Shown: positions 144 through 9,476 of the stretch, piece after piece
Layout: each line of letters opens with the position of its first letter
Numbering within the stretch: position 1 is the first letter of the stretch
Source of the DNA: an uncultured virus (IMG/VR IMGVR_UViG_3300042295_000410)
Lineage: Duplodnaviria; Heunggongvirae; Uroviricota; Caudoviricetes
Direction: 5' to 3' (one strand)
Length of the DNA stretch: 64,000 nt
IMG/VR virus record: IMGVR_UViG_3300042295_000410
Notes under the pieces: generated by a model
What the model was told of the DNA's origin: nothing
Seen by the model: only the letters and a program-made list of their open reading frames with translations
The model's database searches: none
Translations under genes and position numbers: made by a program

Positions 144-210
144 CTTTGCTCCTTAGTGTCTATGTGTGTATTGTAACAGGAATTCAAAGCCCTGTCAACC
201 ACTAAGGTCT

Positions 211-528
211 TTACCAAACCAACTCTTTTGCTGGGTAACGGATGGAACCTTCGTAGTCCAACTGGCTCTGCTCAAACTCTGTGAGGTAGTCGTCCTTGAC
301 AATGCGGAAGTCGATCACTGTTTCACGGAAGTGATCGTTGTCTGACTCAATCTGTGCTCGCAGGCACATGACCGCCATGGTAGCATCGGCAGAGCCACCT
401 TTGAACTTCTTGACCACGTAGTCCGAACCGCCCTTGGCTTTCCAGTACTGTGGGCACTCGTTCTTGCCGTCCCAATCATGGGCACCGTAGTTCTCGTAGT
501 ATTGTGTAGTGATTAACAGTTTAGCCAT
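211..528 (-). CDS. hypothetical phage protein (ENYGAHDWDG...CPQYWK.KGG motif)
   Basis: ORF with AAGGAG SD and its own promoter. Confidence 0.85.
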   Translation of the reverse strand: MAKLLITTQYYENYGAHDWDGKNECPQYWKAKGGSDYVVKKFKGGSADATMAVMCLRAQIESDNDHFRETVIDFRIVKDDYLTEFEQSQLDYEGSIRYPAKELVW

Positions 529-596
529 TGTGTGCTCCTTGTTGCGATGTATGTATTATAACATCAAAAAGAAACCCTGTCAAGTGCAGGGTTATT

Positions 597-671
597 TGGT
601 CCGGCCACCAGGAATCGAACCTGGATTGACTGCTTAGAAGGCAGATGTTCTGTCCATTGAACTATGGCCAG
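597..671 (-). tRNA. tRNA-Arg(UCU)
   Basis: Cloverleaf: acceptor CUGGCCA/UGGCCGG, D-arm GUUC/GAAC, anticodon loop CU-UCU-AA, T-arm CCAGG-UUCGAUU-CCUGG, encoded CCA. Confidence 0.95.
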
Positions 672-677
672 GAATCT

Positions 678-965
678 TTATCTACAGTGAGTGCGCCAGC
701 CAAAGAACTGACCATAGCCGTTATAGACCGGAGTATGGTAGCATACCGGCTGTGGGGGCAAGGGTTGGTAGATGATCTGCGGTTGTGGTTGGTAGATCAC
801 AGGAGGTTGTTGAACGATTACAGGAGGCTGAACGGGCTGTTGTTTAGCCATTGAATTGCCTATGAATCCGCCTAGGATGATACCCAGCAAGACATCCTCT
901 GGACCAGCTGCCTGTGCAGTGCCCAAGGATGCGATCAGTGCGATTGAAGTAAGGATTCGTTTCAT
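678..965 (-). CDS. secreted or membrane Pro/Gln-rich protein with glycine-zipper-like segment
   Basis: Signal-peptide-like N-terminus (AQA), GxxxG helix; leaderless start 6 nt after TATAAT. Confidence 0.8.
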   Translation of the reverse strand: MKRILTSIALIASLGTAQAAGPEDVLLGIILGGFIGNSMAKQQPVQPPVIVQQPPVIYQPQPQIIYQPLPPQPVCYHTPVYNGYGQFFGWRTHCR

Positions 966-991
966 AGTTCTATTATACAGTCAATTATTTA

Positions 992-1201
992 TCAAGTCAA
1001 CTCTTTAAATGTTCGCCCTTTGAGATCCAGCTTGAGCGGTGTACGGAACTTCTTTACCTGATCTGTGCCCGCAGGTATGTAGGCAATAGCTGTGGCACTT
1101 CGACCTGTAACCCGCTCGTTGAAGATGTAGACATGGTTACCGGCGTTGCTGTCTGTCCACTGTGTGGTTTCCTGATAGACTTTAATCGATTTGGATGTCA
1201 T
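992..1201 (-). CDS. hypothetical protein
   Basis: ORF in overlapping operon. Confidence 0.75.
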   Translation of the reverse strand: MTSKSIKVYQETTQWTDSNAGNHVYIFNERVTGRSATAIAYIPAGTDQVKKFRTPLKLDLKGRTFKELT

Positions 1202-1367
1202 GTATCTTACCCTCGTTGAAGATGTAGTAAAGGTTCATAGAACCGTAGTAGACCCAGATGCAGTCATTGCCCGGAGTCATTGTGTAGTGTGTGATTCCCT
1301 TGCGGGCCATGTCCTCTTCGACTAGGATGACCTCTAGTGGGTTAAGGTCTGGATGTATCTTAAGCAC
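1182..1367 (-). CDS. hypothetical protein
   Basis: ORF overlapping both neighbours; GGAG before GTG. Confidence 0.7.
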   Translation of the reverse strand: MLKIHPDLNPLEVILVEEDMARKGITHYTMTPGNDCIWVYYGSMNLYYIFNEGKIHDIQID

Positions 1368-1563
1368 GTTTCAGCACTCCGAAGATCGAGTTCTGGAGTT
1401 CAGCGGCTTCCTCAGTCTCGAGGTAGAAGTCAGTCCGTGGATCCCAGTAGCGGCCTTCCTTAGGATCGTAGTAGGCAACACGGCCATTGGGATAGTGGAA
1501 GGGTCCTTCAAGTCCTTTGCGTGGACCGTATTCCTTGTTGTGTTTGAAAACAATGTAGCTCAT
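1360..1563 (-). CDS. hypothetical protein (GLEGPF...YYDPKEG.YWDP motif)
   Basis: ORF with AAGGAG SD and promoter. Confidence 0.85.
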   Translation of the reverse strand: MSYIVFKHNKEYGPRKGLEGPFHYPNGRVAYYDPKEGRYWDPRTDFYLETEEAAELQNSIFGVLKRA

Positions 1564-1780
1564 TGACTGCTCCTTGTTGCGATGTATGTATTATAACACC
1601 GGGATAGTATTCTGTCAACCAATTCCTTGCGTCTTGTAGGGTCTTTAAGGGCTCTTCTCTATCGCTGAGAACACGATGGTTTCCACAGGCTCGGACATGA
1701 TAGCCTACTTGATCATTGCCTATGATACGAAAGCTTCGATCTCTGCGGAACCATTCTTCGTCGACATTGTTTAAGTTCAT
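1508..1780 (-). CDS. hypothetical protein, leaderless start; C-terminus reads through the next promoter cassette
   Basis: ATG 6 nt after TATAAT at 1787-1792; start revised from ORF track. Confidence 0.5.
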   Translation of the reverse strand: MNLNNVDEEWFRRDRSFRIIGNDQVGYHVRACGNHRVLSDREEPLKTLQDARNWLTEYYPGVIIHTSQQGAVNELHCFQTQQGIRSTQRT

Positions 1781-1934
1781 GTATGTATTATAGCAAGGTT
1801 TTACCACTCTGTCAACCTCTTTTGGTGTTGTATTTTTGCCACAAAAGGTGAGCCCCGCAACAGCTTCACAGCGTGGCAGGGCTCGGGGGTTTGCCTGGGA
1901 CACTACCCCCAGGACTTCGGAGCGAACTCTCTAC

Positions 1935-2204
1935 TTACGCAAGGCCGAGAGCCATAGCCTTGTAACCTGCGGCAATGATCTTGCGGCTTGGTTGACCCAT
2001 AACATACTCGGTCACTTCAACACCGTTACCGGCTTTGCGGTTGTTTGCATACACTGCGAAACCGCTTTGACGAATACGGCTGACTTCAGCTGTGACATTC
2101 TTGATACCGAAACGCTTTGCAGCCTGTGCAGGAGTCAATGCCTCGCCTGCTTTCAATGCTGTGAATAGTTTCCCGGCTTTGGTTTCTGGATTAATCGTTT
2201 TCAT
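1935..2204 (-). CDS. winged-helix/HTH-like DNA-binding protein
   Basis: LTPAQAAKRFGIKNVTAEVSRIRQSG resembles an HTH; AAGGA SD; start revised. Confidence 0.65.
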   Translation of the reverse strand: MKTINPETKAGKLFTALKAGEALTPAQAAKRFGIKNVTAEVSRIRQSGFAVYANNRKAGNGVEVTEYVMGQPSRKIIAAGYKAMALGLA

Positions 2205-2269
2205 TTTGTCTTCCTTGTTAGATACTGCTGTGCAGTTATTATCTATTATAGAGAAGACTGACTGGTAAA

Positions 2270-2488
2270 TCAAGCACTAATTTTGCCAAATTCACGATCG
2301 ACATAATGTCCGATCAGTTTACGCTGGATAAGGGTAATCAAATCCCCGTGCTGATCCGAAACAATGAATCGAACAGGGCAACGACCCCAAGTACCGGACC
2401 TTTGGAACTCTGCAAACCATTTGCGGTGTTGCTTGTTCTCCGGATCGAATGCCGTCCAAGGACGACCAATATAATCTAATCTACTCAT
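2270..2488 (-). CDS. hypothetical protein
   Basis: ORF; start revised to MSRLDY. Confidence 0.75.
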   Translation of the reverse strand: MSRLDYIGRPWTAFDPENKQHRKWFAEFQRSGTWGRCPVRFIVSDQHGDLITLIQRKLIGHYVDREFGKISA

Positions 2489-2572
2489 AGTGTTCTCTCT
2501 GAATACCCCGTTATACATGTTATCGAAGAGGACTTATTGACATTGCCTCTACGCACACTGCAGGGGTTATTC

Positions 2573-2992
2573 TTAGTAAGGGGCGTCTTCCATGTCAGCC
2601 AGCTGGGCAATCACTTGGGCTTTAGTAGGAGTGGGTTTGGCTTCTGCCTTCTTAGCAGCCACCTTGGCTTCGATAGCCTTCATAGTAGGCTTGGCCTTTG
2701 CAGCTTTGGCAACCTTAGCCTCTTTAGCAGGCACTTCGCTACGCTTGTCGATCTCAGCAGCCAGTGCAGCCAACACATCAGCATTGGTCTTGCCGTTGGT
2801 AGTGGCAAAGTCGATCTCCATGAGATAAGCAACAGCGTCCTCTTTGGTCATAGCGTGTTTCAGCTCGATGATATCAATATCGGTATGACCGTTCTTGATC
2901 AGCACCTTGGTACGCAGTGCGTCATTGGCAAAACGAACTTTGAATTGGCCATCTTGTTTAGAAACGCCAGCATGGGTAAAAGATTTAGACAT
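2573..2992 (-). CDS. hypothetical protein with Ala/Lys/Pro-rich, histone-H1-like linker
   Basis: AAAGGA SD; AKVAKAAKAKP low-complexity tract; start revised. Confidence 0.8.
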   Translation of the reverse strand: MSKSFTHAGVSKQDGQFKVRFANDALRTKVLIKNGHTDIDIIELKHAMTKEDAVAYLMEIDFATTNGKTNADVLAALAAEIDKRSEVPAKEAKVAKAAKAKPTMKAIEAKVAAKKAEAKPTPTKAQVIAQLADMEDAPY

Positions 2993-3074
2993 AAAATTTC
3001 CTTTGTGTTTGTCTGTGTGTACGAACAGCACCGCGCTGTCCATGTATTAATTATAACCTCTTTTGGAGGAACTG

Positions 3075-3254
3075 TCAACCAAAATATGGCGAATAGACTT
3101 CCTCCTCTTGTGGCGTATCAGCAACACTGTTGCCTTCAATCCAACCGTAGACCATCTCCACGGGGCAATCCAATGTCAGTGCAATCATTCTGGCACTCAT
3201 GCCATCGATGTACAGTTGCTCAATGTCGTATGCCAGTTCAGCGATCTTGCTCAT
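3075..3254 (-). CDS. 59-aa HTH-like protein (MSKIAELAYDIEQLYIDGMSARMIALTLDCPVEMVYGWIEG...)
   Basis: Manual translation; ATGA overlap with upstream gene; GAGGAGG SD; below ORF-track cutoff. Confidence 0.75.
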   Translation of the reverse strand: MSKIAELAYDIEQLYIDGMSARMIALTLDCPVEMVYGWIEGNSVADTPQEEEVYSPYFG

Positions 3255-3664
3255 TCCATTTCCTCCTCTTGCTTCTCTTGTTCAAATGCCAGTTCTAACG
3301 GAATCCAATTCTCTTGTGTGCCGTAGTGACGAACATACCACTGAGCCTTGCCTTTCCAGTTCATGCTGAGGATGTAGTCGTACTCCTCGCCGCTGACATT
3401 TTTGTAATAGTCCTCAATGTCTTTGTATTTCTCAATCGACAACTCTTCACCGCGTTGTGTGTAGGCACCCTGTTTAGTTTCCTCAACAGAGTCGCACAGG
3501 CTTGAGAAACCGCCCAAGTCAATCAAGTCACGCAGTTTGAACGGATCGCTGTAGTGCTTGAGCAAGAGCTGGCCGTTGTGTGCCAGGTAGCCGTCCCAGT
3601 GACAGTAGACTTGCTGTACTGTGCCATCTGCAAACTCAAGTGCGATAGTGCTTCGTGTACCCAT
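3251..3664 (-). CDS. conserved phage early protein (MGTRS...YCHWDGY family)
   Basis: Recognisable motif; GGAG SD; own promoter. Confidence 0.85.
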   Translation of the reverse strand: MGTRSTIALEFADGTVQQVYCHWDGYLAHNGQLLLKHYSDPFKLRDLIDLGGFSSLCDSVEETKQGAYTQRGEELSIEKYKDIEDYYKNVSGEEYDYILSMNWKGKAQWYVRHYGTQENWIPLELAFEQEKQEEEME

Positions 3665-3777
3665 TGTGTGCTCCAGTGTGTTTGTGTAAGTGTTAATTAT
3701 AGCAAGGTTTTACCAAACTGTCAACCCCTGCGAAGTACCCAGGCGTGTTGCAGGGTCTAATGGCAGGGGTTGACATT

Positions 3778-4020
3778 TCAGCAATCGGGATCAAAGTCTG
3801 CCCACTCTTGCGCTTCGTCGGGCTGTCCGTCAGCTTCCTCTTGCTCCAGGCGCTCTGCACAGTCCAGGAAGTTTTGGCACAGCTCGCGCATATACTCATA
3901 AGCTGCTTTCTCAGTGCGGCTCAAGTCCAGCTCGCTCATAGAGTCCGCATTGTCCATTGCTTCCACGCAGTGACGCAGATCATTCATTGTGTTCTCAAAC
4001 ATGCAGTAAGACATATTCAT
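3778..4020 (-). CDS. hypothetical acidic protein (MSYCMFENT..DL motif)
   Basis: AAGGAG SD; start revised. Confidence 0.8.
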   Translation of the reverse strand: MNMSYCMFENTMNDLRHCVEAMDNADSMSELDLSRTEKAAYEYMRELCQNFLDCAERLEQEEADGQPDEAQEWADFDPDC

Positions 4021-4092
4021 ATCAGCTCCTTTGTTGTGTATGTGTGTATTATAACACTGTTTGGCTACCCTGTCAACCAAAGACCCTACAGC

Positions 4093-4356
4093 TTACTCGG
4101 GCTTTACGCCCATAGCTTCAACAGCTTTCACGCCCTCTGCTGTAAGATAAAGTACACGATTGCGGGTAGCTGTAACAACAAACACAGCGCCCTCTTGCCC
4201 ATCGTTCCAGCTGTCGTAGCGCACAGCAGGGTTTTTAAGCAGAGCAGTTATAGCCATCTTACGAGCACGTTCGCCCTCGTTGTAAGTGCCATTGCATCCG
4301 CACATGCAGCCGGGCTTGCCAGTGTAAGAGCGGGTAGTTTGATTGACTGTAAGCAT
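4093..4356 (-). CDS. hypothetical protein with YTGKPGCMCGC motif
   Basis: AAGGAG SD; start revised. Confidence 0.8.
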   Translation of the reverse strand: MLTVNQTTRSYTGKPGCMCGCNGTYNEGERARKMAITALLKNPAVRYDSWNDGQEGAVFVVTATRNRVLYLTAEGVKAVEAMGVKPE

Positions 4357-4406
4357 GTCTACTCCTTGTTGCGATGTATGTATTATAACAAGATTTTGCC
4401 AACTTG

Positions 4407-4631
4407 TCAAGCCAGCGTAGCAGAAACCTTATCCGCTGTAGGGTCATACTTGAGGAACAGTTTGCCCGCACCGTCATCAGTGTCTGTCACAAGGTAGCAG
4501 AACTCGTGCCCGTTGGTGATGCCCAGGAAGCGGGCTGTCTTGAGTTTGGGTCGGCCTTTGACGGGCAGTGCCTGCTCTAGCATAACTGCTGGCATGTTGG
4601 TGAGGAGTTTGAGTTTGTCCGCTGTAATCAT
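4407..4631 (-). CDS. hypothetical protein
   Basis: ATGA overlap with upstream gene; GGAGG SD. Confidence 0.8.
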   Translation of the reverse strand: MITADKLKLLTNMPAVMLEQALPVKGRPKLKTARFLGITNGHEFCYLVTDTDDGAGKLFLKYDPTADKVSATLA

Positions 4632-4783
4632 TCCGCCTCCAACTCGCAGTCCTCTAACACAGCATCTGCGGTCTCAATAAAGCCCAACAGCTCATTGCCT
4701 GCACAGTTCTTGCCCTGTGCAAACAGGAAGTCCGCAAACTGTTCCATCTTTCCCAACAGCTCTTCAACATCTGTACGCTTCAT
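4628..4783 (-). CDS. 51-aa acidic hypothetical protein (MKRTDVEELLGKMEQFADFLF...)
   Basis: Manual translation; AGGAG SD; promoter 4811-4839. Confidence 0.8.
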   Translation of the reverse strand: MKRTDVEELLGKMEQFADFLFAQGKNCAGNELLGFIETADAVLEDCELEAE

Positions 4784-4865
4784 GTCTGCTCCTGTTTAGT
4801 GTATGTGTGTATTATAACGCAAAAGGGCACTGCTGTCAACAATGCCCTTCCACTTTACTGTACTA

Positions 4866-5252
4866 TTAAATGCCCTCGCACTCCGCAATCACAGCGTTAA
4901 CATGCTGGGGGTCCAAACGCATTAAGCCCGCAATAAACTTATCTCCTACATCGCACGACACGTAATTGTCGCCCTGCATACCCTGCTCGCTGTACTCCAC
5001 GTCGTTTGCTTCTGCTTGCGTAAAGCCCAACGTAACCAAGTACTCACGCAGTTCTGCTTTAAACTGCTTGTCTGTGTAAATTAGTCCCATTGTGTTAACG
5101 TCCCAGCTGTCTGCTGTAAAGTACACACACAGCTCGCCGAAGTCTCTCTCGTCGTTAATGAACTGCAAGTCTAGTTTCGTAACGTCTACAGCTTTAGCTG
5201 TGCGGCTCCAGTAGCCGAGTCCGTTTGTGTGCAGTGTAGTGTATGTTTGCAT
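4866..5252 (-). CDS. hypothetical protein (G.GYWS...GLIYTD..F...YSEQGMQG..YVS motif)
   Basis: AAGGA SD; start revised; lies in the motif-depleted island. Confidence 0.85.
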   Translation of the reverse strand: MQTYTTLHTNGLGYWSRTAKAVDVTKLDLQFINDERDFGELCVYFTADSWDVNTMGLIYTDKQFKAELREYLVTLGFTQAEANDVEYSEQGMQGDNYVSCDVGDKFIAGLMRLDPQHVNAVIAECEGI

Positions 5253-5335
5253 TTTAATTTCCTTTTCGTTTAACATGTGTGTATTATAACGCAAAAAGGT
5301 ACACAGGGCAACCAAAGACCCTATGTGCTGTAGGG

Positions 5336-5512
5336 TTATAAAGTAAACACTGCTACAGTGTCTCCTGCTTGCTTAATGCTTTGTGTTGCATGTGCGAGCA
5401 TAGTTTTATATTTGTACATGCTTGCTTTATTTTTTTGTGCTACTGCTAGCGGCACAAATTTTCCTGCAATTAGATAAGTGTTATTGCGTTGCAGTGTATA
5501 CATTTTTAACAT
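5336..5512 (-). CDS. 58-aa basic hypothetical protein
   Basis: AGGA SD; own promoter; lies in the motif-depleted island. Confidence 0.7.
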   Translation of the reverse strand: MLKMYTLQRNNTYLIAGKFVPLAVAQKNKASMYKYKTMLAHATQSIKQAGDTVAVFTL

Positions 5513-5595
5513 TTTGGTTCCTGTTTGTTTTAACATGTGTGTATTATAACACTGTTTTGTAAAACGAGCAACCAAAGCCCCTGGGGGCTGTAGGG

Positions 5596-6144
5596 TTATT
5601 CTTGATCCTCTTGGTTCTCTTCTTCCCAGTCAGCCATACTCTCGCTGATGCAGAAGTAGTCGTCTAACTCCTCGCCGATCATGTCACGCACCGTGTCAGC
5701 AGTTGCGCCACCGTACTCACAGCAGTCGTCACTACCGTTGTCCCACTTGCCCACAAACTGCATGCCAGGCTCGTAGTAGAAGGCCACTAGATCAAAGCCC
5801 AAGTCCATCAACTGCTCATATGCACGGATGGGTGGTGCCCAGGCACTGTCGAAGCCAGCTGTGACAGTGTTAGCATCCTCGATCTCTACATTGCTAGACT
5901 CTACATCCCACTTGGTGCCCCAGTTGGCCACATTGAAGTCATACCAGGAACTGTATCCGTACTTCTCTCGGTTAGCTTTTTCAGCATCGTTGGTGCCCAT
6001 CTGAGCCACAGTGTCCAGCAGTTCGGCAGGGCAAGGAATGAACTCCTGCAGGAACTTGCCCTCTTGCAGAGCCTTGGCGGCCCGCTGGATCATTTGGGGG
6101 TCTGCGTGACGCAGTGTAATACCGTTTGAACACCAATTAGGCAT
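5596..6144 (-). CDS. DUF1281/YubB (Api92-like) ferredoxin-fold protein
   Basis: MPNWCSN...NWGTKWD...FDSAWAPP...YYEPG signature; GAGGAG SD. Confidence 0.8.
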   Translation of the reverse strand: MPNWCSNGITLRHADPQMIQRAAKALQEGKFLQEFIPCPAELLDTVAQMGTNDAEKANREKYGYSSWYDFNVANWGTKWDVESSNVEIEDANTVTAGFDSAWAPPIRAYEQLMDLGFDLVAFYYEPGMQFVGKWDNGSDDCCEYGGATADTVRDMIGEELDDYFCISESMADWEEENQEDQE

Positions 6145-6349
6145 CGTAGCTCTCCTCGCCAAGTTCAGTAATCTCTTCTTCCACCACACTGATATCAACA
6201 ATGCGGAACCGTTGTGTCATATCGCTAACACCACAGAACGCATCTGTGAAGCTTTGGTTCTCTGCCAGAAACTCCAGCACACTTTGACGATCCGTGCCCT
6301 CGGGCACTTCAATCTCCTGACGGAGAACAGTTGTAACCATTGCTTTCAT
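6137..6349 (-). CDS. hypothetical protein
   Basis: TAATG coupling to upstream gene; start revised. Confidence 0.75.
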   Translation of the reverse strand: MKAMVTTVLRQEIEVPEGTDRQSVLEFLAENQSFTDAFCGVSDMTQRFRIVDISVVEEEITELGEESYDA

Positions 6350-6618
6350 TAGATGATCTCCTCTTCCCACTCGTAAAAAGAAACAGCCGGGTCCAACTTC
6401 TTCAACTGCTTTGCCGCAGTCATCAGTTCCTTGTAGCGACGATTGACTTCTGTGCGGCTCAGTTCGCCATCACAGGTCAAGTTCTCCGGACTCAATGCGG
6501 CATCGATCATGTCTGCGATACGCTGGCGACCCTTGGCACTCTGGATCTCGTATTGCTCGCCTTTGAAGAAACTGTTCCAGTGATTCTTCTGCTCGATAAA
6601 CTTCTCTAGTGCTTTCAT
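6349..6618 (-). CDS. hypothetical protein (LSPENLTCDGE motif)
   Basis: AAGGAG SD; own promoter. Confidence 0.85.
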   Translation of the reverse strand: MKALEKFIEQKNHWNSFFKGEQYEIQSAKGRQRIADMIDAALSPENLTCDGELSRTEVNRRYKELMTAAKQLKKLDPAVSFYEWEEEII

Positions 6619-6671
6619 CTTTGCTCCTTAGTGTGTAAGTGTGTATTATAGCAAGAAAACAGGGGATTGTC

Positions 6672-6854
6672 AACTACCCGTTAGTCCGTCTCTAACGTTC
6701 GGTGTGCCAAACATTACGCCCTAGTTCCCCGTCAGCAACTCGTGTAAACTTTCGTTTACAACTGCCTTCATGCCCCACAGCAACCTGTCCCCGTCGGAAC
6801 TCTTCGCTTGCTGTGGGCCCTAACGGACTAGGTAACCCTGTTTATTTCTTACTA
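6672..6854 (-). ncRNA. candidate multi-helix non-coding RNA, ~180 nt
   Basis: Own consensus promoter, no SD-led gene; closing stem plus three internal hairpins, one with a GAAA tetraloop. Confidence 0.7.
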
Positions 6855-6885
6855 TGCCTTATTATAGCAAGGTTTTACCAACTTG

Positions 6886-7116
6886 TCAACCAAATGCTTT
6901 GTATAACCCTACAATGCCTATGGCTAATGATACAACGTTGACCACAGCCTGTGGCTTATTTGCCACACGGATAGCCCATGCCAAGAACGCTACAGTGCCC
7001 ACAGCGAACGCGATAATATTGTAAGGATAGACACTGGGACCTATTGCGTTGAGTACGTGCCCGGCAATGATCGCCACGGCACCCACCCACTGTAGTACTT
7101 CATTCTTATTAAACAT
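6886..7116 (-). CDS. small membrane protein with ~3 TM helices
   Basis: Hydrophobic segments; start revised. Confidence 0.8.
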   Translation of the reverse strand: MFNKNEVLQWVGAVAIIAGHVLNAIGPSVYPYNIIAFAVGTVAFLAWAIRVANKPQAVVNVVSLAIGIVGLYKAFG

Positions 7117-7489
7117 CAACACCTTCACGATCAACCATGTCGCTCAACTCAGCGAATTTTTGTTTGTACTTGTAGACTTCGCGTTTGGCTTCGTGCAGTG
7201 CTTCGCCGATGCAGTCCTCTGCGGTGCCGTCTGTCAGTACTTCGCGAGCATCCTTGTACAGACATCCGCCCAGGTAGTGCGAACCCATCTCAAGGCTGTC
7301 AACCATTACACGCACTCGCAACATGAACCAATCCAAGTTGCCATTGTCGATGTCTTTACACATCTTGCTAACTTCTTCTTCACTATCAAAGTCAAAGCAA
7401 TCACGTGGGTTCAGGTCTTCGTAGCTCTTGTCTACGATCACAGTAAAGCCATCGCGCTCGTAAGTTGCCAGTTCATCGTAGTATCGCAT
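7109..7489 (-). CDS. hypothetical protein
   Basis: ORF with AAAGG SD. Confidence 0.8.
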   Translation of the reverse strand: MRYYDELATYERDGFTVIVDKSYEDLNPRDCFDFDSEEEVSKMCKDIDNGNLDWFMLRVRVMVDSLEMGSHYLGGCLYKDAREVLTDGTAEDCIGEALHEAKREVYKYKQKFAELSDMVDREGVDV

Positions 7490-7498
7490 AGTTGCCTT

Positions 7499-7729
7499 TC
7501 AATAGTGGTGACGTGAGCCGGGATCGCAGAAGTCTGCATTGTCGGGAGTCCACTCCTCGTCTTCTTCAACAATGGTGTCCTCATCCTCTTCGTCCAGGAT
7601 GTCGTTAGCACGGCACATGTCTTTAACATCGTCCTCGCTCATGTAGGCCAATGCCATCTCTGCCACAGCTTCTGCTGAGATCAAACCCTCATCCATCATC
7701 TCTAACAGCTTCGTAGTGTACTTGCGCAT
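7499..7729 (-). CDS. acidic hypothetical protein
   Basis: AAGGAG SD; start revised. Confidence 0.8.
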   Translation of the reverse strand: MRKYTTKLLEMMDEGLISAEAVAEMALAYMSEDDVKDMCRANDILDEEDEDTIVEEDEEWTPDNADFCDPGSRHHY

Positions 7730-7791
7730 ATCAGCTCCTTGTTGCGATGTATGTATTATAACAGGTTTTACCAACCCTGTCAACCGAAGGG

Positions 7792-8148
7792 TTATTCAAC
7801 GCCCACAGACACATCGACCTCAATATCTGTAACGTCGCCAGCGAGATCGTACTTAATACCCGTCACAGCCGCGCCGTAGTTGACCTGCTTGAGACGCTCT
7901 CTGATCATGCTTTCGAGGTCGCCCATCATATCGCCAATGAAGTCAGTGGCGCTGTCTTTAACGCCACGCAGGGTTTCGTTGATCCCATTGCGCGACATGT
8001 CCTCTTGCCCGTCCATGATCATCTCAATGAAAGCTTCTGTCTGGCTGATCAGTACTTGCTCTACAACGGCATTGACCAGTTCGCGCTTGCCAAACAACAA
8101 CTCAACGGCCTTAAAGGTCTGCTCACCTGCTTTATACACTACAGTCAT
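7792..8148 (-). CDS. hypothetical protein
   Basis: AGGAG SD; promoter. Confidence 0.8.
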   Translation of the reverse strand: MTVVYKAGEQTFKAVELLFGKRELVNAVVEQVLISQTEAFIEMIMDGQEDMSRNGINETLRGVKDSATDFIGDMMGDLESMIRERLKQVNYGAAVTGIKYDLAGDVTDIEVDVSVGVE

Positions 8149-8199
8149 CGTCTTCTCCTGTTAAACAAGTATGTATTATAACACGGTTTTACCAAAGTG

Positions 8200-8472
8200 T
8201 CAAGCGGTTTCTAACATATTTGCAGGCACCCTCCACAGGCCCTGGTTAGTACGAACTGTTACGTATTTGATCGCGATCTTGTCTACGACACCCTGCATAG
8301 TGATGCCTGTTTTAGTGCTAGTGAACTTCACAGCACTGCCCAGCGTGACAGAGCGTTTGGTCTTCTCTGCAAGGCGTGCTCGGGCAAATTTCACAGCGTC
8401 GATGATGCTGGTCAGTTGATCGTTAGTGAAGTTGCCTGCAAGAATCTCATTGTTGATAGATTGAACGGACAT
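8200..8472 (-). CDS. hypothetical protein with SH3-like C-terminal half
   Basis: AAGGAG SD; G.V.KI..KYV.V.....WRV pattern. Confidence 0.8.
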   Translation of the reverse strand: MSVQSINNEILAGNFTNDQLTSIIDAVKFARARLAEKTKRSVTLGSAVKFTSTKTGITMQGVVDKIAIKYVTVRTNQGLWRVPANMLETA

Positions 8473-8499
8473 ATCAGCTCCTTTGTGTGTAAGTGTATA

Positions 8500-8664
8500 T
8501 TATACGGTAAAACCGATAACCTTGTCAACCATTGGGTTTTTGCGAGCCACAGCCCGCCATGCCCGATTGGCCTTGGTCCATTGTTCGTGATTGGTGGTAA
8601 AGCCCGGGAATCGATCCTTGGCCCAGATCACAAAGTTCAAACGTTCAATTTCGTTCTTCATCAC
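8500..8664 (-). CDS. hypothetical protein
   Basis: GTGA overlap with upstream gene; GGAG SD. Confidence 0.65.
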   Translation of the reverse strand: MMKNEIERLNFVIWAKDRFPGFTTNHEQWTKANRAWRAVARKNPMVDKVIGFTV

Positions 8665-8939
8665 ATGCTCCAGTAGAGTTCGCTTGACGGATCGCAACTG
8701 CGGGGAGTGTCGTGTGCGATCTCAACCATTGCCCCAGTCATCAAGTTCTTAACAGTCTTCATGCTGGGAGTCCAGTCGAAGCGGAAGCCGTCTTCTGGCC
8801 TGTACAAATGGAACAAGTCCGCTACAGTGCGGCGCATGGCATTGTCATCCGCTACGGGCCAAACTGTAGTAGAGAACAAGCGCTCTCCGGTCTTTGTACG
8901 ACGATCTGCTTTGTAGATGTATAGTGTATAACTCATCAT
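8661..8939 (-). CDS. hypothetical protein (TP.SCDPSSE.YWSM C-terminal motif)
   Basis: AAGGAG SD; promoter. Confidence 0.85.
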   Translation of the reverse strand: MMSYTLYIYKADRRTKTGERLFSTTVWPVADDNAMRRTVADLFHLYRPEDGFRFDWTPSMKTVKNLMTGAMVEIAHDTPRSCDPSSELYWSM

Positions 8940-9010
8940 TGCTCCTTAGTGTGTAAGTGTCAATTATAACACGGTTTTACCAACTTGTCAAGTGTTACTT
9001 GAAGTGACAC

Positions 9011-9349
9011 TTAGTCCCCACGAACGTCTGTATTTAAAACAGGCTTAACCATTCTGCGGATCTCTACTTCACGCTTGTGGGCTTCTGCCTTGCCTCGTAT
9101 AACTTCATGCACGTATACTTCAATCTCGCTCTTGTCGCTCAGTGTGCGCAACTCAGCACAGAGCAGCCAGTTCTTAGTCTCAGTCTTGGCACGATAGAAG
9201 TGTTTAGCGGCACGACTCAAAACACTCTTGTTCACAGTGCTCTCTGTCTTAGCTGTGACGCCAATGTAGTTCTTGCCGTTGACCACAAGCTCATAGATGA
9301 TATGATTGCGGTCTACACGCTTCTTACGGGTTACTGTTTGTGTCGTCAT
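9011..9349 (-). CDS. GIY-YIG-like nuclease domain protein
   Basis: IIY(x8)YIG motif, conserved Arg and C-terminal E...LN; leaderless start. Confidence 0.65.
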   Translation of the reverse strand: MTTQTVTRKKRVDRNHIIYELVVNGKNYIGVTAKTESTVNKSVLSRAAKHFYRAKTETKNWLLCAELRTLSDKSEIEVYVHEVIRGKAEAHKREVEIRRMVKPVLNTDVRGD

Positions 9350-9476
9350 AGTGTATTATAGCAAGGTTTTACCAATCAGTCAACCAAAGACCCTCCAAAT
9401 GATCTGTGTTCAAAATACAACAAGACAGGCACTCCAAAAGATGCTATAATACATACTTAAACAACAAAGGAAGCAC

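What the first reader, a model, noticed from the sequence alone, without database searches (positions are those of the whole stretch)
6672..6889. Promoter cassette that appears to drive a multi-helix RNA instead of a protein
Seen: every other early promoter in 170-9383 leads to a start codon, but the perfect TTGACA-N17-TATAAT at 6861-6889 leads into ~180 nt with no SD-led gene. On the minus strand this folds by eye into a closing stem (GGUUACC-UAGUCCGUU / GACGGACUA-acg-GGUAGUU) enclosing three arms. Arm 1 is CCCACAGCAA/UUGCUGUGGG carrying GUUCC-GACG-GGGAC. Arm 2 is GGCAGUU..GUAAAC-GAAA-GUUUAC..AGUUGCU. Arm 3 is UAAUGUUUGG-CACA-CCGAACGUUA. AGUUCC could also pair with the downstream GGAACU, and GACGGGGA occurs twice. 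The G-U pairs work only on the minus strand. I cannot match it to a family I know. Inference: an early phage ncRNA such as a protein decoy, antitoxin mimic or ribozyme. A 16-codon ORF (MKAVVNESLHELLTGN) lies inside without an SD.
Basis: partly seen in the sequence, partly recalled or inferred. Interest (0 to 1): 0.85.

Follow-up and report, generated by a model that had tools for sequence, protein, structure and literature searches.

The report
Orphan folded RNA of jumbo phages
This gene-free gap encodes a real, intricately folded RNA of about 200 bases that many uncultured freshwater jumbo phages carry, either at the head of their tRNA operons or behind an early promoter; it matches no catalogued RNA family and its job is still unknown.

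Summary
The unit runs about 6855-6648 (minus strand), closed by a 17-bp AU-rich helix that overlaps the next promoter (z = -6.4). I found 116 distinct relatives, all in viral or metagenome contigs. Covariation is strong (47 of 59 pairs change on both sides). The 16-codon ORF is not conserved. There is no Rfam match and no cellular relative in what was searched. 61 of 116 copies lie just before tRNAs, and 43 follow a boxA-like signal as in rRNA operons. Very different alleles swap in this early slot. Four lake or river metatranscriptomes hold short contigs on the RNA (weak). Best guess for function (about 45%): a stable trans-acting RNA that binds a host protein. No partner is known. The scan probably met this family before on other DNA (e1-5380848).

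The parts
6861..6889 (-). sigma70-type promoter (TTGACA-17-TATAAT, extended -10)
   Evidence: 12 of 12 matches
6648..6855 (-). predicted RNA including its closing helix (208 nt); the 5' end falls at the expected transcription start (inferred from spacing to the -10 box)
   Evidence: z -6.4; family model hit at 6656-6845, 101 bits (the window was in the seed alignment)
6836..6855 (-). P0 leader strand (pairs with 6664-6648): 17-bp AU-rich leader-trailer-like helix with a 3-nt bulge
   Evidence: in the family 114 of 116 have such a helix, median 23 bp; 6 of 8 modelled pairs change on both sides
6648..6664 (-). P0 trailer strand, which doubles as spacer and first -10 bases of the next promoter
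6822..6835 (-). 5' strand of the conserved bulged core helix P1 (P1a 6835-6832, P1b 6831-6827, P1c 6826-6822)
6714..6733 (-). 3' strand of P1 (P1c 6733-6729, bulge, P1b 6725-6721, bulge, P1a 6717-6714)
   Evidence: L035 and L088 change A-U to G-C in P1b
6772..6819 (-).
6766..6771 (-). conserved junction strand A-U-G-A-A-R between P2 and P3
   Evidence: 76 of 76 distinct members of A2; 19 of 19 members found without an RNA pattern
6734..6766 (-).
6667..6710 (-). P5, the 3' arm (6710-6705 with 6672-6667; 6703-6701 with 6678-6676; hairpin 6697-6692 with 6684-6679, 7-nt loop); its outer strand includes the -35 box of the next promoter
   Evidence: 4 of 6 hairpin pairs change on both sides among 9 alleles
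6645..6673 (-). next sigma70-type promoter, overlapping the RNA's 3' end
6721..6771 (-). 16-codon ORF; not conserved, judged spurious
6349..6618 (-). downstream 89-aa early gene of unknown function
   Evidence: no PHROG match
6886..7113 (-). upstream 75-aa hydrophobic early gene of unknown function
   Evidence: no PHROG match

Best explanation
The locus is one allele of a phage-only family of structured non-coding RNAs (core 152-268 nt) from uncultured freshwater jumbo phages of about 320-380 kb. SHOWN by comparison: a long AU-rich helix closes a conserved bulged helix with a three-way junction at each end and three variable arms. The gene is single-copy in nearly all records, occupies two kinds of site (head of a tRNA operon behind a boxA-like signal, or an early promoter-to-promoter cassette as here), and moves or is exchanged as a cassette. 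INFERRED: host sigma70 polymerase transcribes it strongly. The closing helix acts like an rRNA leader-trailer helix that sets the fold and gives a handle for RNase III-type release or protects the ends. The stable RNA then acts in trans by binding a host protein of translation, RNA turnover or anti-phage defence through its invariant core, as a decoy or scaffold, while the arms vary. The partner is not identified.
For: Structure: 90% of 4119 cells paired, 47 of 59 pairs with changes on both sides, covariation score 0.477 against 0.155 shuffled and at most 0.113 when slid (alignment fitted to the model). Members found without any RNA pattern keep the core and compensate it (L139, L122, L428, L431 in P1c; L130/L436 in P1b and P1c). 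Trans action: the RNA changes genomic site; here it is followed at once by another promoter; an empty site exists (L145); one match per record in 17 of 18 records, with one tandem pair (L304/L391). Protein contact: bases inside helices are nearly invariant, not just paired (35 columns at 90% or more, most in P0, P1 and the junctions). Divergent alleles in one slot: neighbour gene 78-86% identical in both groups while the RNA is 87-93% or only 53-60% identical (shuffle baseline 52%). rRNA-like chassis: boxA-like motif at -61 to -74 in 43 of 116 (background 81 of 18441 windows), 42 of these before tRNAs; strict consensus of PMC5725501 in 26 of 116. Short stand-alone contigs cover the RNA in 4 of 4 metatranscriptomes laid.
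Against: No binding partner, target or activity was shown. No sequence likeness to 16S/23S rRNA beyond chance, no 6S, RNase P or SRP match, no GGA enrichment (4.4 against 4.8 expected), and no Ro60, RtcB or RNase III gene in 5 complete relatives. For this allele the family fold is about 13 kcal/mol less stable than the predicted minimum (-71.4 against -84.4), and only about half of the members show the core helices in their own minimum-energy fold (39 and 38 of 76). This copy has no boxA and no terminator. The expression evidence is weak: contigs only, runs chosen because they hold the stretch, one contig (X2) runs past the trailer, and no DNA run was laid. Most members were found with patterns taken from the core, which inflates its apparent invariance.
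Confidence: 0.45

Rival explanations
1. Cis-acting transcription or stability element: the folded leader helps host polymerase read through (put- or EAR-like, recalled) or caps and stabilises the downstream tRNA or early transcript.
For: It is the first element after promoter and boxA in 4 of 4 tRNA operons mapped. 52 of 116 have a promoter within 85 nt upstream. 4 of 5 complete relatives also encode an RNA polymerase omega homologue.
Against: 43 of 116 are followed at once by a new promoter. An empty site keeps both flanking genes. Other tRNA clusters in the same region lack it. Tandem copies exist.
Confidence: 0.15
2. RNA-only structural particle or scaffold, a small analogue of GOLLD and ROOL that oligomerises or holds tRNAs.
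For: Same niche: phage, lake, next to tRNA islands, unknown function (bioRxiv 2024.12.08.627333, passages). Many other unassigned RNAs sit in the same operons.
Against: It is a quarter to a third of their size, no conserved pseudoknot or complementary loop pair was found, and there is no Rfam match.
Confidence: 0.15
3. A new self-cleaving or tRNA-processing ribozyme whose active site is the invariant P1/P2/P3 junction.
For: Invariant unpaired junction bases (A-G and A-x-G-A-A); position upstream of tRNAs.
Against: Hammerhead, group I and RNase P core motifs are absent in 76 of 76, the hairpin loop-B motif in 75 of 76 (recalled motifs). No pseudoknot. The bulges next to the core vary in length and sequence. 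Contigs span the junction intact.
Confidence: 0.12
4. Peptide gene, or a neutral by-product of promoter repeats.
For: A 16-codon ORF lies inside; the region is a promoter-cassette array.
Against: The ORF is disrupted in close alleles, and covariation is far above the controls.
Confidence: 0.03

Closest known systems
GOLLD and ROOL RNAs (bioRxiv 10.1101/2024.12.08.627333; passages read)
   Same: Phage-encoded, found by covariation, often near tRNA islands, function unknown; GOLLD is also lake-derived.
   Different: 659 nt (one ROOL) and over 800 nt (many GOLLD) with pseudoknots for ROOL, against 152-268 nt with no pseudoknot found here; no Rfam hit; nanocage formation untested; boxA plus closing helix layout not mentioned in the passages seen.
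rRNA operon leader: boxA plus leader-trailer helix (PMC10250234, PMC5725501; passages read)
   Same: boxA consensus at a fixed distance upstream, a leader hairpin (43 of 43), a closing helix usually longer than 17 bp, then tRNAs.
   Different: The cargo is a 190-nt orphan RNA with no rRNA likeness; the window's own copy has no boxA; RNase III cleavage untested.
PeSL promoter cassettes of T4-type phages (PMC2839356; passages read)
   Same: Gain, loss and exchange of units between repeated strong sigma70 promoters (empty site L145; allele swaps).
   Different: The cargo is an RNA gene, not an ORF, and the RNA's 3' arm and trailer have merged with the next promoter.
6S RNA (RF00013)
   Same: Similar length; long closing helix.
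   Different: No central single-stranded bubble, two branched junctions instead; no model match.
T4 rnaC/rnaD stable RNAs
   Same: Stable orphan RNAs inside a phage tRNA region.
   Different: Those are described as tRNA-shaped; this RNA gets no tRNA call from ARAGORN or Rfam and has no T-arm/CCA motif (0 of 76).

Membership tests
Any Rfam 15 family | Covariance-model score at or above the gathering threshold | tested here: not met
   Window; 15 loci at gathering; 18 loci at E up to 10, no listed hit overlapping the RNA; 6 long regions
GOLLD / ROOL | Length of several hundred nt with a complex, pseudoknotted fold | tested here: not met
   Core 152-268 nt; no extra conserved helix that crosses the fold without competing for the same strands
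GOLLD / ROOL | Phage-encoded, near tRNA islands | tested here: met
   61 of 116 have a tRNA within 700 nt downstream
GOLLD / ROOL | Forms RNA-only oligomeric cages | not testable with these tools
   Needs mass photometry or cryo-EM
6S RNA | Closing stem, central open bubble, terminal stem; RF00013 match | tested here: not met
   Zero-linker junction instead of a bubble; 0 of 5 complete phages match, though the model rang in only 5 of 14 control genomes
CsrB/RsmZ-type sponge | Many GGA motifs in hairpin loops | tested here: not met
   4.4 GGA per RNA against 4.8 in shuffles
Small self-cleaving ribozymes (hammerhead, hairpin, HDV-like/theta, twister, pistol) | Catalytic core motif or conserved pseudoknot | tested here: not met
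   Hammerhead core 0 of 76, hairpin loop B 1 of 76 (recalled motifs), no conserved pseudoknot; no Rfam hit
Small self-cleaving ribozymes | Self-cleavage in vitro | not testable with these tools
   Bench assay needed
SRP RNA / RNase P RNA | SRP helix-8 loop with tetraloop; RNase P P4 core | tested here: not met
   0 of 76 for both recalled motifs; the G needed for an SRP-like sheared pair forms a G-Y pair in 76 of 76; RF00010 0 of 5
Bacterial Y RNA | Ro60 gene in the same genome and a tRNA-like domain | tested here: not met
   No TROVE gene in 5 of 5 complete phages; a host Ro60 is not excluded
rRNA fragment mimic | Sequence or structure match to a 16S/23S domain | tested here: not met
   E. 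coli rrnB only: profile no hit, best model score 8 bits on the terminator; motif-pair scores reached by 16-36 of 60 shuffles. Shape mimicry without sequence likeness is not excluded
rrn-type antitermination unit | boxA consensus upstream | tested here: met
   26 of 116 strict, 43 of 116 relaxed, background 0.4%; absent from the window's own copy
rrn-type antitermination unit | Nus-dependent read-through and RNase III cut in the leader-trailer helix | not testable with these tools
   Bench assay needed

The most novel reading that the evidence does not exclude
These phages build a 'mini rRNA operon': boxA, leader-trailer helix and tRNAs, with this RNA in the slot where 16S rRNA would be. The product is a new functional class of RNA that takes over or decoys a core host machine (ribosome assembly or quality control, or an RNA-sensing defence nuclease). 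Its arms are swapped between phages as in an arms race, and it is the lead member of a whole kit of uncatalogued RNAs in these operons.
Probability: 0.2. Interest if true: 0.9.

Novelty: new variant of a known kind. Interest (0 to 1): 0.62.

Why it matters
It is a large, well-covarying RNA family absent from Rfam, apparently near-core in a widespread clade of freshwater jumbo phages, and small enough (about 190 nt) for probing, pull-down and cryo-EM. Why big phages fill their tRNA operons with orphan RNAs is an open question. This family gives natural alleles, an empty site and a defined invariant core to test it with. The rRNA-like boxA and closing-helix layout suggests that phages borrow the host's rRNA production line for their own RNAs.

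Tried and rejected
Rfam: nothing for the window or relatives. Cultured phages: no real match to the window RNA (one 57-nt piece at E 0.6), to a consensus-type allele or to the downstream protein; structural and ligase genes gave only distant hits, so no cultured host system exists. Cellular relatives: 0 of 29 pattern hits in the genome collection score with the model; 0 of 5, 0 of 151 and 0 of 101 sampled genomes (only 17-25 candidates per genome scored in the two large searches, so this is 'not found', not 'absent'). rRNA mimicry (23S 3' end, 23S 5' domain and L1 stalk came to mind from recall): scattered chance-level hits only. A pseudoknot between the 3' loop and the 5' strand, my first idea: dropped, because that strand pairs in P1c and many members change the loop without compensation (alignment). 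SRP-like loop, CsrA sponge, Y RNA, 6S, RNase P: see the membership tests. A phage RNase III or RtcB partner: 0 of 5. The 'tmRNA' hit near L308 is below threshold and probably a tRNA end; the standard tmRNA model gave no hit over cut-off, while permuted tmRNAs are real. The P1c part mis-parsed bulge lengths and is not used for counts. Absence of cover on flanking genes is not used as evidence. Literature: searches found no description; in PMC10690425 only 3 of 6 listed supplementary files could be searched (no hit), and the alignment archives could not be read, so a fragment of this family may be among its 29-151-nt candidates.

Full report
Setting. The window is part of a 67.7-kb virus record estimated 19% complete; complete relatives are 320-383 kb. 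Positions 170-9383 are an array of small minus-strand genes, each behind a near-perfect sigma70-type promoter; tail and virion genes follow. No cultured phage is close. The host is unknown. A proteobacterial host is an inference from the boxA motif, the permuted tmRNA of relatives (3 of 6 regions scanned, two also hitting the alphaproteobacterial model) and an omega homologue in 4 of 5 complete relatives.

Observation. The promoter at 6889-6861 is real. It is the only one of 19 listed early promoter sites that does not lead to an ORF start within about 60 nt. The 208-nt unit folds at -83.6 kcal/mol, z -6.4 (plus strand -3.0). The helix starts where transcription should start and ends inside the next promoter's -10 box. 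Rfam has nothing.

Family. A 14-base pattern gave 113 stretches, mostly chance; 14 were close relatives (besides the window's own locus) and one was distant. Loci of the downstream gene gave further distant ones. Core patterns then gave 112 and 83 viral stretches and 119 or more metagenome stretches, of which 72 of the 80 tested score with the model, two of them only as short cut-off pieces. After removing duplicates and copies with short flanks, 116 distinct members remain, 152-268 nt between the terminal GG and CC. The seed alignment A1 used 50 of 64 sequences; 14 long or badly bounded ones were left out. Model R1 found one match in each of 17 of 18 records; the miss was a record that came in through a chance pattern hit, and most of the others were chosen because they had a hit. 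Among 50 of 80 records picked by the neighbouring gene alone, 14 match, including all 4 that are at least 30% complete. No cellular copy was found (limited sensitivity).

Fold. On alignment A2 (79 matches from 78 chosen loci, 76 distinct, fitted to the model) 90.3% of cells pair and 47 of 59 pairs change on both sides. The covariation score is 0.477 against 0.155 for shuffles and at most 0.113 for slid partners. The architecture is: closing helix P0; a junction of P0, P1 and the 3' arm P5 with almost no linker; P1, three short helices separated by two bulges on the 3' strand; and a second junction joining P1, P2 and P3 through A-G and A-x-G-A-A-R strands. Near-invariant bases cluster in the end of P0, in P1 and in the junctions; the arms vary widely in length. 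Since patterns bias this, I checked 19 members from loci fetched without an RNA pattern: 9 do not match the main pattern, yet 19 keep the junction strand and 18 the UAGG, and their changes in P1 are compensated. Among 9 close alleles the family fold has 98% of cells paired and 11 pairs with changes on both sides. Only about half of all members show P1 in their own minimum-energy fold, so protein or tertiary contacts may be needed. The internal ORF is not conserved.

Context. 61 of 116 members have a tRNA within 700 nt downstream. 43 have a boxA-like motif at -61 to -74 (background 81 of 18441 windows), and 42 of these precede tRNAs; 26 match the strict consensus given in PMC5725501 (passages). 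All 43 have a leader hairpin after boxA. 114 of 116 have a closing helix, median 23 bp (best-match search without a random control). PMC10250234 (passages) reports that boxA recruits the rRNA antitermination complex, that a leader-trailer helix longer than 17 bp is essential for 16S maturation, and that it holds the RNase III site. In 4 of 4 operons mapped the RNA is the first element after promoter and boxA. The other context is the window's: 52 of 116 have a promoter within 85 nt upstream and 43 have one directly downstream. Fifteen distinct members share both flanking genes with the window. In 13 loci compared, 8 carry RNAs only 53-60% identical to the window's (shuffle baseline 52%) although the neighbouring gene is 80-84% identical; 5 carry RNAs 87-98% identical with genes 78-94% identical. 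L145 joins the two genes with a single promoter and no RNA.

Expression. 24 runs hold part of 6560-6960; I laid 4. Each has one stand-alone contig of 155-205 nt on the RNA: 6625-6782, 6669-6824, 6670-6817 and 6648-6828. These are contigs from runs chosen for holding the stretch, without strand, ends or a DNA control. This is a weak hint of a stable RNA, not proof.

Function. Tests against known classes were negative: rRNA likeness, 6S (63), RNase P (114), SRP and ribozyme motifs recalled from memory (97), CsrA sponge (83), and phage Ro60, RtcB or RNase III (111-113). What remains is inference. Mobility between sites, an empty site and a promoter directly downstream argue for action in trans. 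Base identity conserved inside helices argues for protein or tertiary recognition. Exchange of divergent alleles suggests selection for variety. I put a trans-acting protein-binding decoy or scaffold at 0.45, a cis transcription or stability element at 0.15, an RNA-only particle at 0.15, a ribozyme at 0.12 and a peptide or neutral origin at 0.03; the remainder is something not thought of. That it is a real conserved structured RNA I put at about 0.95.

Known or new. It works like the orphan structured RNAs of phage tRNA islands (GOLLD, ROOL; bioRxiv 2024.12.08.627333, passages) but fails membership by size, fold and model score. Nine literature searches (listings only) found no description. 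PMC10690425 (first fifth of the text read; 3 of 6 supplementary files searched) lists 8495 IMG/VR candidates of 29-151 nt whose alignments I could not read; a fragment may be there. The size range and habitat fit, so it is probably the same family, but five sequence look-ups did not return it and it could be a sibling family. Verdict: a new RNA family, best classed as a new variant of a known kind, marked by its rRNA-like expression layout and allele swapping; interest 0.62.

Noticed in passing
L586 7990-8637; L587, L589, L591 (tRNA operons of complete relatives): Several other recurring non-coding elements of about 65-215 nt lie between tRNAs, none with an Rfam hit and none similar to this family or present in the window; seeds found 5-89 hits each among the fetched, redundant loci. 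A whole kit of uncatalogued RNAs.
   Followed up: partly
L243 upstream of 2285; L591 after tRNA-Asp; L223 and L292 downstream: The same kind of AU-rich closing helix encloses different cargo RNAs, so the helix looks like a general expression or processing cassette.
   Followed up: no
L586 12853-13220; L588 2707-3103; L589 13555-13977: Permuted (two-piece) tmRNA genes in three complete relatives.
   Followed up: no
L600-L603: RNA polymerase omega homologue in 4 of 5 complete relatives.
   Followed up: partly
L304 / L391 91-516: Two divergent copies of the RNA in tandem, each with its own closing helix.
   Followed up: no
window 6645-6673: Dual coding: the next promoter's -35 box is a strand of P5 and its spacer is the P0 trailer; in other alleles at this slot the promoter lies clear of the RNA.
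   Followed up: partly
window 9355, 1787, 972 (minus-strand promoter ends): Three early promoters lead to an ATG 6-8 nt after the -10 box with no SD, i.e. apparently leaderless mRNAs.
   Followed up: no
window 597-671: Lone tRNA-Arg (TCT) inside the early-gene array.
   Followed up: no
L591 8006-8090; L589 about 9285-9375 on the reversed strand: A tRNA-like element scoring just over the tRNA-Sec threshold (48 against 47 bits) and missed by ARAGORN.
   Followed up: no
   Followed up: no
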